Shown here: in pieces, positions 51,001-60,000 of the stretch
Layout of the letters: every line of letters starts with the position of its first letter
Numbering within the stretch: the stretch's first letter is position 1
Source of the DNA: Isurus oxyrinchus
Lineage: Eukaryota
Direction of reading: 5' to 3'
DNA: 64,000 bases
Assembly (NCBI GenBank): GCA_026770705.1
Contig: JANJGN010000013.1
Location: forward strand, 64,728,001-64,792,000
Made by a program: the position numbers

Positions 51001-54000
51001 AGTAACAAGACCATCAGGGGCTCTATTAACCAGTGCCTCAGATGCCAGAGCAATTAGAGCTTTATGTGGCAGAGTAACCAGAACATCTGGTGCCAGAGTA
51101 ACCAGAGCATCAGGCAGCAGAGTACCCAAATGCATCAGGTGCCAGAGTAAACAGAGCATCAGGTGCCAGATTTAACAGGGCATCAGCTGCCAGAGCAACC
51201 ACAGCATCAGTCGGCAGAGCAACCAGAGCATCAGTTGGCAGAGCAACCAGGGCATCAGTTGCTAGGATATACATTGCATCAAGCGCCAGATTTACTAGGG
51301 CATCATTTGCCAGAGTAATCAGAACATCAGATGCCAGAGTAACCAGGGCATCAGATCCCAAATTAACCAGGGCATCATGTAGGAGAGTAAACAGAGCATC
51401 AGGTGGCAGAACAACTATGGCATCAGGTGGTAGAATAACCAGAACATCAGGTTGCCGAATAATCAGGGCATCAGGTAGCAGAGTAACCACAGTATCAGTT
51501 GGCAGAGTAACCAGAGCATCAGTTGGCAGAGTATCCAGAACATCAGGTGCCAGTGTTTCCAGTGCATCAGGTGCCAGAGGAACCATAGCATCAGTTGTCT
51601 GAGTAACCAGAGCATCATGTTGCCATTTAACCAGGGCTTCAGCTGTCAGAGCAACCAGAGCATCAGGTAGCAGAGCAACCAGGGCATCAGTTACCCAAGT
51701 AATCAGGGCATCTGGTGGCAGAGTAACCAGAGCATCAGCTGTCTGAGTAACCAAAGCATCACGTTGCCATTTAACCAGGGCTTCAGCTGTCAGAGCAACC
51801 AGAGCATCGTGTAGCAGAGCAACCAGGGCATCAGTTACCTAAGTAATCAGGGCATCAGGTAGCAGAGTACCAGTGCATCATTTGGCACAATAACCGCAGC
51901 ATCAGGTGTCAGAGTAACCAGAGCATGTTGGCAGAATAAACAGAGCATCAGTTGGCAGAGTAACCAGAACATCAGGTGCCAGTGTAACCGAGCTTTAGGT
52001 AGCAGAGTAATCAGGGCATCAGGTGGCAGCATAACCAGAGCATCAGTTGGCAGAGTAAACAGTGCATCCGTTGGCAGGGTAACCAGAACATCAGGTGCCA
52101 GAGTTCCCAGGGCATAAGCTGCCAGAGTAACCAGAGCACCAGGTGGCAGACTAAACAGGGCATCAGCTGCTAGGGTAAACATGGCATCAAACACCAGATT
52201 AATCAGGGCATCATTTGCCAGAGTAACCAGAGCATCAGATCCCAGAGTAACTAGGGCATCAGATGGCAAAGTAACCAGAGCATCATGTGGGCGGGTAACC
52301 AGGGCATCAGCTGCCAGATTAAGCAGAACATCAGGTGGCAGAGCAACTAGGAAATCAGGTGGCAGTGTAACCAGAGCATCAGGTGGCTGAGTAACCAGAG
52401 TATCAGATGCCAATTAACCAGAGCTTCATGTGGCAGAGTAACCAGGGAATCAGGTGGATGAGTTATCATGGCATCATATGGCTGAGTAACCAGAGAATCT
52501 TTTGGCAACATAACCAGGGTATCAGATATCAGGGTTATAAAAGCATCAGAGGTCAGAATAACGAGGGTATCAGGTGCCTGAGTAACCAGACCATCAGGTG
52601 CTCTGTTAACCAGTGCCTCAGATGCCAGAGCAACTAGAGCTTTATGTGGCAGAGTAACAAGGGCATCAGGTGACAGAATAATCAGAGCATCCATTGGCAG
52701 AATAACCAGAGCATCAGTTGTCAGAGTAACCAGAACATCAGGTGCCAGAGTTTCCAGGACATCAGGTGCCGGAGCAACCAGGGCATCAGATGCTGGAGAA
52801 ACCAAGACATCAGGTGATAGAGTAACAAGGGAATCAGGTGGGACAGAAACCAGAGCATCAGGTACCAGAATAATAAGAGAATGAGGTGCCAGAATAACCA
52901 ATGCATTATGTGGCAGAGTATCTATTGCATCAGGCGCCAGGTTTGCCATAGCATCGGGTGGCAGAGTAACCATAGCATCAGGTGCCAGAGTAACCCGAGC
53001 ATCAGGCGGCAGAGTACCCAAAAGCATCAGTTGACAGAGTACCAAAGCATCAGGTGCCAGAGTAACCAGTGCATCAGATGGCAGAGTAACCAGAGCATCA
53101 GGTGCCAGAGTAACCCGAGCATCAGGCGGCAGAGTACCCAAAAGCATCAGTTGACAGAGTACCAAAGCATCAGGTGCCAGAGTAAACAGAGCATCAGGTA
53201 CCAGAGTTAACAGGGCATCAGCTGCCAGAGCAACCAGAGCATCAGCTGGCAGAGCAACCAGGGCATCAGTTGCTAGGATATACATTGCATCAAGCGCCAG
53301 ATTTACTAGGGCATCATTTGCCAGAGTAATCAGAACATCAGATGCCAGAGTAACCAGGGCATCAGATCCCAAATTAACCAGGGCATCATGTAGGAGAGTA
53401 AACAGAGCATCAGGTGGCAGAACAACTATGGCATCAGGTGGTAGAATAACCAGAACATCAGGTTGCCGAATAATCAGGGCATCAGGTAGCAGAGTAACCA
53501 CAGTATCAGTTGGCAGAGTAACCAGAGCATCAGGCGGCAGAGTACCCAAAAGCATCAGTTGACAGAGTACCAAAGCATCAGGTGCCAGAGTAACCAGTGC
53601 ATCAGATGGCAGAGTAACCAGAGCATCAGGTGCCAGAGTAACCCGAGCATCAGGCGGCAGAGTACCCAAAAGCATCAGTTGACAGAGTACCAAAGCATCA
53701 GGTGCCAGAGTAAACAGAGCATCAGGTACCAGAGTTAACAGGGCATCAGCTGCCAGAGCAACCAGAGCATCAGCTGGCAGAGCAACCAGGGCATCAGTTG
53801 CTAGGATATACATTGCATCAAGCGCCAGATTTACTAGGGCATCATTTGCCAGAGTAATCAGAACATCAGATGCCAGAGTAACCAGGGCATCAGATCCCAA
53901 ATTAACCAGGGCATCATGTAGGAGAGTAAACAGAGCATCAGGTGGCAGAACAACTATGGCATCAGGTGGTAGAATAACCAGAACATCAGGTTGCCGAATA

Positions 54001-57000: not shown

Positions 57001-60000
57001 GAATCAGGTGGATGAGTTATCATGGCATCATATGGCTGAGTAACCAGAGAATCTTTTGGCAACATAACCAGGGTATCAGATATCAGGGTTATAAAAGCAT
57101 CAGAGGTCAGAATAACGAGGGTATCAGGTGCCTGAGTAACCAGACCATCAGGTGCTCTGTTAACCAGTGCCTCAGATGCCAGAGCAACTAGAGCTTTATG
57201 TGGCAGAGTAACAAGGGCATCAGGTGACAGAATAATCAGAGCATCCATTGGCAGAATAACCAGAGCATCAGTTGTCAGAGTAACCAGAACATCAGGTGCC
57301 AGAGTTTCCAGGACATCAGGTGCCGGAGCAACCAGGGCATCAGATGCTGGAGAAACCAAGACATCAGGTGATAGAGTAACAAGGGAATCAGGTGGGACAG
57401 AAACCAGAGCATCAGGTACCAGAATAATAAGAGAATGAGGTGCCAGAATAACCAATGCATTATGTGGCAGAGTATCTATTGCATCAGGCGCCAGGTTTGC
57501 CATAGCATCGGGTGGCAGAGTAACCATAGCATCAGGTGCCAGAGTAACCCGAGCATCAGGCGGCAGAGTACCCAAAAGCATCAGTTGACAGAGTACCAAA
57601 GCATCAGGTGCCAGAGTAACCAGTGCATCAGATGGCAGAGTAACCAGAGCATCAGGTGCCAGAGTAACCCGAGCATCAGGCGGCAGAGTACCCAAAAGCA
57701 TCAGTTGACAGAGTACCAAAGCATCAGGTGCCAGAGTAAACAGAACATCAGGTACCAGAGTTAACAGGGCATCAGCTGCCAGAGCAACCAGAGCATCAGC
57801 TGGCAGAGCAACCAGGGCATCAGTTGCTAGGATATACATTGCATCAAGCGCCAGATTTACTAGGGCATCATTTGCCAGAGTAATCAGAACATCAGATGCC
57901 AGAGTAACCAGGGCATCAGATCCCAAATTAACCAGGGCATCATGTAGGAGAGTAAACAGAGCATCAGGTGGCAGAACAACTATGGCATCAGGTGGTAGAA
58001 TAACCAGAACATCAGGTTGCCGAATAATCAGGGCATCAGGTAGCAGAGTAACCACAGTATCAGTTGGCAGAGTAACCAGAGCATCAGTTGGCAGAGTATC
58101 CAGAACATCAGGTGCCAGTGTTTCCAGTGCATCAGGTGCCAGAGGAACCATAGCATCAGTTGTCTGAGTAACCAGAGCATCATGTTGCCATTTAACCAGG
58201 GCTTCAGCTGTCAGAGCAACCAGAGCATCAGGTAGCAGAGCAACCAGGGCATCAGTTACCCAAGTAATCAGGGCATCTGGTGGCAGAGTAACCAGAGCAT
58301 CAGCTGTCTGAGTAACCAAAGCATCACGTTGCCATTTAACCAGGGCTTCAGCTGTCAGAGCAACCAGAGCATCGTGTAGCAGAGCAACCAGGGCATCAGT
58401 TACCTAAGTAATCAGGGCATCAGGTAGCAGAGTACCAGTGCATCATTTGGCACAATAACCGCAGCATCAGGTGTCAGAGTAACCAGAGCATGTTGGCAGA
58501 ATAAACAGAGCATCAGTTGGCAGAGTAACCAGAACATCAGGTGCCAGTGTAACCGAGCTTTAGGTAGCAGAGTAATCAGGGCATCAGGTGGCAGCATAAC
58601 CAGAGCATCAGGTGGCTGAGTAACCAGAGTATCAGATGCCAATTAACCAGAGCTTCATGTGGCAGAGTAACCAGGGAATCAGGTGGATGAGTTATCATGG
58701 CATCATATGGCTGAGTAACCAGAGAATCTTTTGGCAACATAACCAGGGTATCAGATATCAGGGTTATAAAAGCATCAGAGGTCAGAATAACGAGGGTATC
58801 AGGTGCCTGAGTAACCAGACCATCAGGTGCTCTGTTAACCAGTGCCTCAGATGCCAGAGCAACTAGAGCTTTATGTGGCAGAGTAACAAGGGCATCAGGT
58901 GACAGAATAATCAGAGCATCCATTGGCAGAATAACCAGAGCATCAGTTGTCAGAGTAACCAGAACATCAGGTGCCAGAGTTTCCAGGACATCAGGTGCCG
59001 GAGCAACCAGGGCATCAGATGCTGGAGAAACCAAGACATCAGGTGATAGAGTAACAAGGGAATCAGGTGGGACAGAAACCAGAGCATCAGGTACCAGAAT
59101 AATAAGAGAATGAGGTGCCAGAATAACCAATGCATTATGTGGCAGAGTATCTATTGCATCAGGCGCCAGGTTTGCCATAGCATCGGGTGGCAGAGTAACC
59201 ATAGCATCAGGTGCCAGAGTAACCCGAGCATCAGGCGGCAGAGTACCCAAAAGCATCAGTTGACAGAGTACCAAAGCATCAGGTGCCAGAGTAACCAGTG
59301 CATCAGATGGCAGAGTAACCAGAGCATCAGGTGCCAGAGTAACCCGAGCATCAGGCGGCAGAGTACCCAAAAGCATCAGTTGACAGAGTACCAAAGCATC
59401 AGGTGCCAGAGTAAACAGAGCATCAGGTACCAGAGTTAACAGGGCATCAGCTGCCAGAGCAACCAGAGCATCAGTTGGCAGAGCAACCAGGGCATCAGTT
59501 GCTAGGATAAACATTGCATCAAGCGCCAGATTTACTAGGGCATCATTTGCCAGAGTAATCAGAACATCAGGTGCAAGAGTAACCAGGGCATCAGATCTAA
59601 AAGTAACCAGGGCATCATGTAGGAGAGTAAACGGAGCATCAGGTGGCAGAACAATAAGGGCATCAGGTGGTAGAGTAACCAGAACATCAGGTTGCCGAAT
59701 AATCAGGGCATCAGGTAACAGAGTAACCACAGTATCAGTTGGCAGAGTAACCAGAACATCAGTTGGCAGAGTAACCAGAACATCAGGTGTCAGTGTTTCC
59801 AGTGCATCAGATGCCAGAGGAACCATAGCATCAGCTGTCTGAGTAACCAGAGCATCACGTTGCCATTTAACCAGGGCTTCAGCTGTCAGAGCAACCAGAG
59901 CATCAGGTAGCAGAGCAACCAGGGCATCAGTTACCCAAATAATCAGGGCATCTGGTGGCAGAGTAACCAGAGCATCAGCTGGCAGAGCAACCAGAGCATC

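What the first reader, a model, noticed from the sequence alone, without database searches (positions are those of the whole stretch)
51240..59474. An 84-monomer (2013-bp) higher-order repeat forming inside a diverged 24-bp array
Seen: adjacent monomers differ by several bases, yet the 2013-bp units differ at only a handful of sites. The unit is nested: 24-bp monomers, internal 120-bp (52981/53101) and 144-bp (51621/51765) duplications, and a 528-bp duplication. Copy lengths are 2011, (528), 2013, 2013 and 1675 bp. Established: primate alpha satellite is organised as HORs of diverged monomers. Inference: a very high-order HOR built on a minisatellite-size monomer is unusual, and this may be the actively expanding core of an undescribed satellite family.
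Basis: partly seen in the sequence, partly recalled or inferred. Interest (0 to 1): 0.7.

Follow-up and report, generated by a model that had tools for sequence, protein, structure and literature searches.

The report
Young 2-kb repeat inside 24-bp satellite
A 2-kb block of 84 diverged 24-bp satellite monomers has recently been copied about four times in tandem inside a much older array, which is the ordinary way satellite DNA builds higher-order repeats.

Summary
The whole window is one head-to-tail 24-bp array. Its monomers are about 73% alike at any distance. Between about 51,236 and 59,474-59,510 lies a block of four 2,013-bp units (84 monomers) plus a 528-bp partial unit. The units are 99.8% identical to one another.

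The internal units combine the head of the right-hand older copy with the body of the left-hand older copy. Copies at 92-98% and 86-96% identity lie around the block. The deletion junctions keep the monomer register. This fits repeated unequal exchange between older paralogs about 2 kb apart, followed by duplication and deletion steps.

The array is not coding, although one minus-strand frame stays open for up to 977 codons. No close protein relative or Rfam family was found.

Kilobase-scale repeats built on short monomers are already known (DYZ1; lemur centromeres). So the structure is real and cleanly resolved, but ordinary in kind. The organism, the chromosomal position and read support remain untested. 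Interest is low to moderate.

The parts
1..63999 (+). One uninterrupted 24-bp satellite array in a single orientation. Monomers are about 83% identical to the consensus and about 73% to each other at any distance.
   Evidence: TRF. In one search, 62 of 62 motif matches lie on the + strand..
51067..51235 (+). Old left flank. It is the head (unit columns 1-169) of the left-hand older copy A and is only about 84% identical to the heads of the internal units.
   Evidence: 22 substitutions and one 1-nt indel in columns 17-148; column 169 is T, as in E.
51236..53078 (+). Young copy A, the body (unit columns 170-2013). It carries a 2-bp deletion shared with D and one private transition.
   Evidence: 3 substitutions and one 2-bp indel against B over about 1844 columns.
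53079..53606 (+). Partial unit Ap (528 bp = 22 monomers): the head joined to the tail, i.e. a unit with a 1485-bp internal deletion. Equivalently, a 528-bp duplication.
   Evidence: 52961-53544 vs 53489-54072, 98.8%; 577/584.
53607..55619 (+). Young copy B: a full unit of 2013 bp and 84 monomers, with two private transitions, one of them at a CpG.
55620..57632 (+). Young copy C: a full unit of 2013 bp. It shares a TT-to-GC dinucleotide change with Ap.
57633..59307 (+). Young copy D (1675 bp): a unit with a 336-bp (14-monomer) deletion, the 2-bp deletion shared with A, and one private transition.
59308..59474 (+). Last young head (unit columns 1-168), identical to the heads of Ap, B and C (D has one private change). 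It marks the right end of the young block.
   Evidence: no E-specific difference before column 169; E-specific differences begin at column 204 (window 59510).
59475..61200 (+). Older copy E, the body: 92-98% identical to the unit, with its own 48-bp and 72-bp gaps.
   Evidence: 60034-61055 vs the unit, 95%; B-E 123 of 1893.
61168..61866 (+). Older copy F of the unit head, 94-95% identical, at lag 1893 from E.
44579..51078 (+). Scattered older partial copies of unit segments (86-97%) at irregular spacing to the left of the block.
   Evidence: (e.g. 46113-46786 at 93.8%, 50287-50723 at 93.4%, 44676-44900 at 96.9%).
52956..53195 (+). Internal 120-bp (5-monomer) duplication within the unit.
   Evidence: three consecutive monomers at 24/24, and 112/120 from 52981.
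51572..51859 (+). Internal 144-bp (6-monomer) duplication within the unit.
   Evidence: 20-24 of 24 per monomer over 51572-51715 at lag 144. Also visible.

Best explanation
This is non-coding satellite DNA. An old array of 24-bp monomers diverged long ago until any two monomers were about 73% identical, and it is now reshaped by kilobase-scale duplications.

In the 44-64 kb part of the window, a segment of about 2 kb was duplicated several times in the past; those copies are now 86-98% alike. Most recently (inferred), an unequal exchange between two neighbouring older copies about 2 kb apart, A and E, crossed over within unit columns 149-203. That produced a hybrid unit with the head of E and the body of A.

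Further out-of-register exchanges, probably including the duplication of a two-unit block, raised the number of units to four. Two in-register deletions, of 1485 bp and 336 bp, trimmed two of the units. A 2-bp deletion was probably spread between units by exchange or conversion.

The result is a nascent higher-order repeat of 84 monomers (2013 bp) at 99.8% identity.

Shown: the structure, the layered identities, the hybrid make-up of the units, the register of the junctions, and the lack of any coding signal. Inferred: the mechanism (homology-driven unequal sister-chromatid or homolog exchange, plus conversion) and the order of events. No function is implied for the block itself.
For: Array and block.

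Hybrid units: Ap, B, C and D match E in columns 1-168, apart from one private change in D, and match A from column 170 on. A differs from them at 22 substitutions and an indel in columns 17-148. E differs from column 204 on. Column 169 is T in both A and E but C in all four internal units, which points to one mutation in the first hybrid before it was amplified.

The history has several steps. The GC/TT state at columns 457-458 alternates along the units: A TT, Ap GC, B TT, C GC, D TT. A and D share a 2-bp deletion. B, D and A each carry private changes.

The variants look like real mutations: 5 of 5 single-base differences are transitions, one at a CpG.

Junction and duplication lengths keep the monomer register: 528 = 22x24, 336 = 14x24, 120 = 5x24, 144 = 6x24. 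The deletion flanks share identical runs of 12-15 nt.

Older layers with about the same period: E at 92-98%, F at 94-95% (lag 1893), and others at 86-96%.

Smaller two-copy duplications of the same kind occur elsewhere in the window, for example 6721-7509 vs 10222-11010 at 98.9%.

Non-coding.

Established knowledge: unequal crossover and molecular-drive models of satellite and HOR formation, as summarised in passages of PMC8122249.
Against: No reads were available, so the assembly of four near-identical 2-kb units is unverified.

The 2-bp deletion is shared by the non-adjacent units A and D. Explaining this needs an extra conversion or exchange step, or a recurrent deletion, so the order of events is not unique.

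A tandem duplication by any other route with the same end points would give the same hybrid pattern. The main argument for homology-driven exchange is that the young period equals the spacing of the older copies.

Only four units exist, so calling the block a HOR array is generous.
Confidence: 0.8

Rival explanations
1. Assembly artefact: a single 2-kb segment (or two haplotypes of it) was falsely expanded into tandem copies by the assembler.
For: Copies at 99.8% identity inside a satellite are the kind of place where assemblers err. No read data could be examined in any call.
Against: The copies can be told apart and differ in structure: a 528-bp partial unit, a 336-bp deletion, a 2-bp indel in two of the units, private transitions, and a dinucleotide change shared by two non-adjacent units. 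The flanks form a coherent recombinant pattern with the older copies. The differences are substitutions, including a CpG transition, rather than homopolymer indels.
Confidence: 0.07
2. The amplification arose in one step from a circular or replicative intermediate (rolling-circle copying of an excised 2-kb unit, or replication template switching), not from repeated unequal exchange.
For: All internal units share the same junction phase and the column-169 change. Rolling-circle amplification is one of the proposed routes for satellites (passage in PMC8122249).
Against: The alternating GC/TT state, the 2-bp deletion shared by A and D but not B and C, and the older 92-98% copies with nearly the same period all point to several rounds over time rather than one burst. 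These data cannot fully exclude a burst followed by later conversions.
Confidence: 0.08
3. The array is, or recently was, a giant coding repeat. The minus strand reads as 8-residue repeats (consensus T-L-A-P-D-A-L-V) with open frames of up to 977 codons, and the 2013-bp unit is a multiple of three.
For: Long minus-strand frames cover much of the window, and the translations look like regular 8-residue repeats. 2013 = 671x3. An exhaustive protein search gave weak matches to other proteins with 8-residue repeats.
Against: Stops in that frame number 22, against 21.5 +/- 4.3 expected from column composition alone. The frame is open simply because every consensus codon is two steps away from a stop.

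Third positions of four-fold degenerate codons are among the most conserved positions of the monomer (positions 11 and 14, at 95%).

Differences between paralogous blocks are most frequent at codon position 1 (10.9%), not position 3 (6.5%).

373 of 384 indel events relative to the consensus are not multiples of three. The frames break about every 1 kb, including inside each unit and identically in B and C.

Pfam gave nothing above its cut-off. Two word-index searches gave no relative. The exhaustive search gave nothing below 1e-30 (best 29% identity). The 8 top hits I scanned belong to unrelated families, and the 4 I read each have their own repeat motif.
Confidence: 0.03

Closest known systems
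Alpha-satellite higher-order repeats of primates
   Same: Monomers within a unit are about 70% identical, while units are 97-100% identical (definition in passages of PMC8122249). Here the values are 72.6% and 99.8%. Young homogeneous copies sit among older, diverged copies.
   Different: The monomer is 24 bp, not 171 bp, and there is no sequence relation. There are only four units and a fragment (8.3 kb), not hundreds to thousands. The unit has 84 monomers, against at most 34 in the passage read. A centromere association is unknown.
DYZ1 / HSat3-type nested tandem repeats
   Same: [quoted passage not shown]
   Different: The monomer differs (24 bp here, a pentamer there). DYZ1 forms megabase arrays, whereas this is a four-copy block.
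Lemur centromeric satellites with short monomers
   Same: Species-specific higher-order repeats on monomers as short as 41 bp and 6 bp (abstract and methods passages of bioRxiv 10.64898/2026.05.16.725662).
   Different: No 24-bp monomer is mentioned there: a search for '24 bp' and '24-bp' in that text found 0 occurrences. Organism and centromere status are unknown here.
Bovine 1.706 satellite
   Same: As I recall it, a unit of about 2.35 kb made of diverged 23-bp subrepeats. That would be the closest match in monomer size and unit size.
   Different: Two searches found no paper in the library that describes it, so neither the figures nor any sequence relation could be checked.

Membership tests
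Higher-order repeat (HOR) organisation of satellite DNA | Monomers within the unit are clearly diverged from one another (about 20-40%). | tested here: met
   In unit B, adjacent monomers are 72.6% identical, the mean pairwise identity is 72.4%, and 80 of 84 monomers are distinct.
Higher-order repeat (HOR) organisation of satellite DNA | Multi-monomer units are repeated head to tail at much higher identity (95-100%). | tested here: met
   B-C differ at 4 of 2013, B-D at 3 of 1675, and A-B at 3 substitutions plus one indel over columns 170-2013.
Higher-order repeat (HOR) organisation of satellite DNA | The unit is reiterated many times to form a homogeneous array. | tested here: not met
   There are four units and one 528-bp fragment in 8.3 kb. 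Outside the block, 1 of 232 tiles has three or more copies at 97% or better. The array beyond the window is unseen.
Higher-order repeat (HOR) organisation of satellite DNA | Association with the active centromere (CENP-A, methylation dip). This is typical but not obligatory. | not testable with these tools
   There are no flanks, no chromosome position and no epigenetic data.
Nested tandem repeat of the DYZ1/HSat3 kind | A kilobase-scale unit derived from an ancestral short tandem repeat. | tested here: met
   The 2013-bp unit decomposes fully into 84 monomers of 24 bp.
Nested tandem repeat of the DYZ1/HSat3 kind | Derivation from the CATTC pentamer, i.e. membership of that family. | tested here: not met
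   The TRF consensus of 24 bp is not made of that pentamer. The block works like this family but is not a member.
Protein-coding tandem repeat | An uninterrupted reading frame through the repeats. | tested here: not met
   Frames break about every 1 kb, and 373 of 384 indel events shift the frame.
Protein-coding tandem repeat | Excess variation at synonymous (third) codon positions. | tested here: not met
   Differences between paralogs are 10.9%, 6.8% and 6.5% at codon positions 1, 2 and 3. Four-fold sites at monomer positions 11 and 14 are 95% conserved.
Protein-coding tandem repeat | Recognisable relatives among known proteins. | tested here: not met
   Pfam gave nothing above its cut-off. 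Two word-index searches found nothing. The exhaustive search found only periodic matches at 20-49% identity; the 8 scanned belong to unrelated families.
Minisatellite / VNTR (definition recalled) | A repeat unit of roughly 10-100 bp. | tested here: met
   The period is 24.
Minisatellite / VNTR (definition recalled) | An array of at most a few tens of kb. | tested here: not met
   The array fills all 64 kb and runs off both ends, which is satellite scale.

The most novel reading that the evidence does not exclude
The 24-bp array is a functional satellite, for example the centromeric repeat of its species. Its conserved core (monomer positions 7-11 and 14, 88-95% conserved) would be kept by a sequence-specific binding protein or by array-wide conversion, and the young 2-kb block would be the currently homogenising, kinetochore-bearing core.

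The points that make this more than idle: substitution rates between paralogous blocks differ 4-5 fold between monomer positions. States at positions 13 and 16 are tightly linked within monomers (chi-square p 6e-69), yet show no order along the array. Monomer identity does not fall with distance.
Probability: 0.1. Interest if true: 0.5.

Novelty: new member of a known kind. Interest (0 to 1): 0.25.

Why it matters
The block is a cleanly resolved snapshot of a higher-order repeat at its birth. Both flanks, the hybrid first unit, three identity layers and the later deletions can all be read directly from one sequence, which is rare for HORs that have already swept through an array.

If the assembly holds, the locus would be a convenient natural marker for measuring unequal-exchange rates in this species. 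It does not change any concept: the process and the organisation are textbook satellite biology.

Tried and rejected
1. Coding repeat. Tested by stop counts against column shuffles, per-position conservation, differences between paralogs by codon position, frame-shift counts, Pfam and two word-index protein searches (none found). An exhaustive search of 1.84 billion representatives gave 164 hits at E<=1e-3 and 0 at <=1e-30. All 4 hits I read carry different 8-residue repeats. Pfam scans of 8 hits put 7 in unrelated families (sulfotransferase, ALTTAQ/Big_5, integrase, WSK, phage gp5 C-terminal and others); 1 of the 8 matched none. Rejected.

2. Structured RNA. Rfam at gathering thresholds found 0 matches in the window.

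3. Hairpin or dyad structure. Four 144-nt stretches folded as DNA gave z-scores of 0.19, 0.84, -1.35 and -0.98 against shuffles. Inverted repeats in 44-64 kb are only 18-21 nt. Rejected.

4. Prokaryotic origin. A 31-nt degenerate motif that occurs 62 times in the window has 0 matches in the bacterial and archaeal genome collection.

5. An ancient short HOR (dimer to 12-mer). The variable positions show no autocorrelation, and monomer identity has no peak other than at lag 84 among the lags sampled.

6. Prior description. A full-text search for four consensus-derived strings found 0 papers. Searches for 24-bp satellites and for the bovine satellite gave nothing relevant.

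Full report
WHAT THE WINDOW IS

Tandem Repeats Finder reports a single array of a 24-bp unit over 1-63999 (2666 copies, 71% matches, 2% indels). The window has no N, and its + strand is purine-rich (A 20947, G 18043, C 13835, T 11175). A 31-nt degenerate motif drawn from the consensus occurs 62 times, all 62 on the + strand, so the array has one orientation.

I aligned the sequence to the consensus treated as a cycle. This gave 2674 monomers with 146 inserted and 307 deleted bases. 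Monomers are on average 83.2% identical to the consensus, and 24 match it exactly.

Once the register is corrected, identity between monomers does not fall with distance. It is 72.8% for neighbours, 72.4% at two monomers, and 72.9% at 1000 monomers. The only bump, 74.4%, is at 84 monomers. The monomer-level amplification is therefore old, and what is recent acts on a larger scale.

CpG is depleted. The overall observed/expected ratio is 0.10, and there are 331 CpGs against 590 expected from independent monomer columns. That fits a methylated eukaryotic genome but does not name it.

CHECK OF THE OBSERVATION

- Self-BLAST gives 53489-56612 vs 55502-58623 at 99.5% with lag 2013. The companion diagonals have lags 2540, 4553, 528, 1675, 3688 and 6229. 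Counts of shared 20-mers by lag agree.
- I aligned the copies with these limits: A 51067-53078, Ap 53079-53606, B 53607-55619, C 55620-57632, D 57633-59307, E 59308-61200. B and C differ at 4 of 2013 columns, B and D at 3 of 1675, and C and D at 3 of 1675.
- A and B differ at 26 of 2011 columns. Of these, 23 lie in columns 17-169, which is window 51083-51235. From column 170 on, A differs from B by three substitutions and one 2-bp indel.
- Unit B holds 84 monomers, 80 of them distinct. Neighbouring monomers are 72.6% identical, the same as in the window at large.
- The internal 120-bp, 144-bp and 528-bp duplications are verified.
- In 240-bp tiles, 32 of the 34 tiles between 51361 and 59520 have another copy at 238/240 or better, and 27 of 34 have three or more further copies at 97% or better. 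The two exceptions span the 2-bp indel and the 336-bp deletion junction.
- Of the 232 tiles outside, the median best match is 87.9%, 18 reach 97%, 3 reach 99.2%, and one has three copies at 97%.

ANATOMY AND HISTORY OF THE BLOCK

The heads of the copies tell the story.

- In columns 17-148, A differs from Ap, B, C, D and E at 22 substitutions and one indel. That stretch of A is therefore old left flank.
- E is identical to the internal units through column 168, apart from one private change in D. It then carries 13 differences of its own between columns 204 and 450, and it is 92-98% identical further on. From there, E is old right flank.
- Each internal unit is thus 'head of E plus body of A'.
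- Column 169 is T in both A and E but C in all four internal units. This is one mutation in the first hybrid unit, made before it was copied.

The block therefore runs from 51215-51236 to 59474-59510.

Later events are also readable.

- A TT-to-GC change at columns 457-458 is present in Ap and C but not in A, B, D or E. This alternation suggests that a two-unit block was duplicated.
- A 2-bp deletion is shared by A and D.
- B has two private changes, D has one and A has one. All five single-base differences among the young copies are transitions, one of them at a CpG.
- Ap has a 1485-bp deletion and D has a 336-bp deletion.
- Both deletions keep the 24-bp register. Their flanks share identical runs of 12-15 nt.

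OLDER LAYERS

Segments of the unit recur at lower identity around the block.

- E: 59.5-61.2 kb, 92-98%.
- F: 61168-61866, 94-95%, 1893 bp after E.
- Partial copies at 46.1-46.8 kb (90-96%), at 50.3-50.7 kb (91-93%), near 47.4, 48.7 and 49.9 kb (91-95%), and at 62.7-63.0 kb (87-90%).

The head of A is about 84% identical to the other heads, still above the 73% monomer background. There are thus at least three layers: about 84-90%, 92-98%, and 99.8%.

MECHANISM

The young period (2013 bp) equals the spacing that the older copies A and E must have had. The hybrid structure is what a crossover between their first 150-200 bases would give, and all junction lengths keep the monomer register. I therefore infer homology-driven unequal exchange between misaligned older copies, followed by further exchanges, conversion and deletions. 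These are the classical unequal-crossover and molecular-drive processes summarised in the passages of PMC8122249 that I read.

The inference rests on pattern, not on observed events. A single replicative burst followed by conversions is not excluded.

IS IT CODING?

The minus strand reads as 8-residue repeats and has open frames of up to 977 codons. I tested this reading and reject it.

- Stops in that frame number 22 in 17,520 codons, against 21.5 +/- 4.3 in column shuffles. Every consensus codon is simply two steps away from a stop.
- The third positions of the Ala and Pro codons (monomer positions 14 and 11) are among the most conserved of all, at 95%.
- Across 32 pairs of paralogous blocks, differences are 10.9%, 6.8% and 6.5% at codon positions 1, 2 and 3.
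- 373 of 384 indel events shift the frame. The frames break about every kilobase, and they do so identically in units B and C.
- Pfam gave one match below its cut-off. Two word-index searches gave none.
- The exhaustive search gave 164 proteins at E<=1e-3, none at <=1e-30, and a best hit at 29% identity. The four hits I read each have their own 8-residue repeat. The eight I scanned fall in unrelated families or in none. These are matches of periodicity, not of descent.
- Rfam found nothing. Folding is no better than for shuffled sequence.

ARRAY-WIDE ODDITIES (side results)

- Conservation differs strongly between monomer positions, from 44% at position 16 to 96% at position 3.
- The same positions differ most between blocks duplicated more recently: positions 13, 16 and 1 show 135, 125 and 101 differences, against about 29-30 at positions 3, 8, 9, 11 and 14.
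- States at positions 13 and 16 are linked within monomers (p 6e-69) but show no order along the array.
- Differences between paralogous blocks are clustered. There are 419 neighbouring pairs within 3 nt, against 312 +/- 13 expected, and 0 of 500 shuffles reach the observed value. Transversions are common, and C/G accounts for 44 of 107 differences at position 16.

Short-tract conversion between monomers would explain all of this. Selection on a bound motif is the bolder alternative. I could not separate the two.

COMPARISON WITH WHAT IS KNOWN

The organisation meets the two core criteria of a HOR: diverged monomers and near-identical units. It does not meet the criterion of a long homogeneous array.

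It works like alpha-satellite HORs. It works even more like DYZ1-type nested tandem repeats, which are ~3.6-kb units derived from a pentamer and evolve by iterative tandem duplication and unequal exchange (passages of 10.1101/2022.12.01.518724). Lemur centromeric higher-order repeats on 41-bp and 6-bp monomers show that short monomers are no bar to such structures (abstract and passages of 10.64898/2026.05.16.725662).

From memory, a bovine satellite of about 2.35 kb built on 23-bp subrepeats would be the nearest in size. I could not verify this.

LIMITS

- The organism is undetermined.
- No eukaryotic genome, Dfam or Repbase collection was available.
Satellite consensus lists are often printed only there, so the claim that the sequence was not found in print rests on the main-text search alone.
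- No gene model is involved, so no spliced search arose.
- Read support, copy-number variation and chromosomal position are untested.

VERDICT

The structure is real and was accurately described. It is best read as a nascent higher-order repeat made by repeated unequal exchange in an old non-coding 24-bp satellite. It is a new example of a known kind, of modest interest.

Noticed in passing
window 6721-13408: A second, older cluster of kilobase-scale duplications with mixed lags. 6721-7509 matches 10222-11010 at 98.9% (lag 3501). 7762-8269 matches 9680-10187 at 96.1% (lag 1918). 9926-10750 matches 12400-13200 at 93.1%. 6735-7249 matches 12686-13200 at 93.8%. It is the same process as the reported block, but with two copies only.
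   Followed up: partly
window 37896-38145 and 43208-43457; 23696-24965 and 32954-34222: There are isolated long-range duplicates: 250 bp at 99.2% across 5.3 kb, and 1270 bp at 94.9% across 9.3 kb. Duplication in this array is therefore not only tandem-adjacent.
   Followed up: no
window 6147-6366 (also 10856-11169, 19913-20093): TRF reports nested repeats with periods 15, 39, 63, 87 and 111 (15 + 24k), centred near 6260. This is the signature of a partial monomer that shifts the register of the array, not of a separate repeat.
   Followed up: no
whole window, minus strand (e.g. 48238-51171): One minus-strand frame stays open for up to 977 codons and reads as regular 8-residue repeats. This is explained by a consensus in which every codon is two steps from a stop. 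Gene finders could mis-call it.
   Followed up: yes
whole window, monomer positions 13 and 16: Position 16 is C in 44% and G in 41% of monomers. Its state is strongly linked to that of position 13 (p 6e-69), yet neither shows any order along the array. Differences between paralogous blocks are clustered and rich in transversions. This suggests short-tract conversion among monomers.
   Followed up: partly
window 52592-52610 and its copies at 55133, 57146 and 58821: One monomer of the unit carries a stretch of about 5-11 nt that reads as the reverse complement of the usual monomer sequence. It shows up as small inverted repeats against normal monomers and may be a micro-inversion.
   Followed up: no
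whole window: CpG is strongly depleted: the observed/expected ratio is 0.10, and there are 331 CpGs against 590 expected from monomer columns. This is consistent with a methylated eukaryotic genome.
   Followed up: partly
proteins P0003, P0006, P0008, P0031: Unrelated proteins in the public library carry long runs of their own 8-residue repeats, and they match the conceptual translation only through shared periodicity. One of them (P0031) matches the phage gp5 C-terminal beta-helix family in Pfam.
   Followed up: partly
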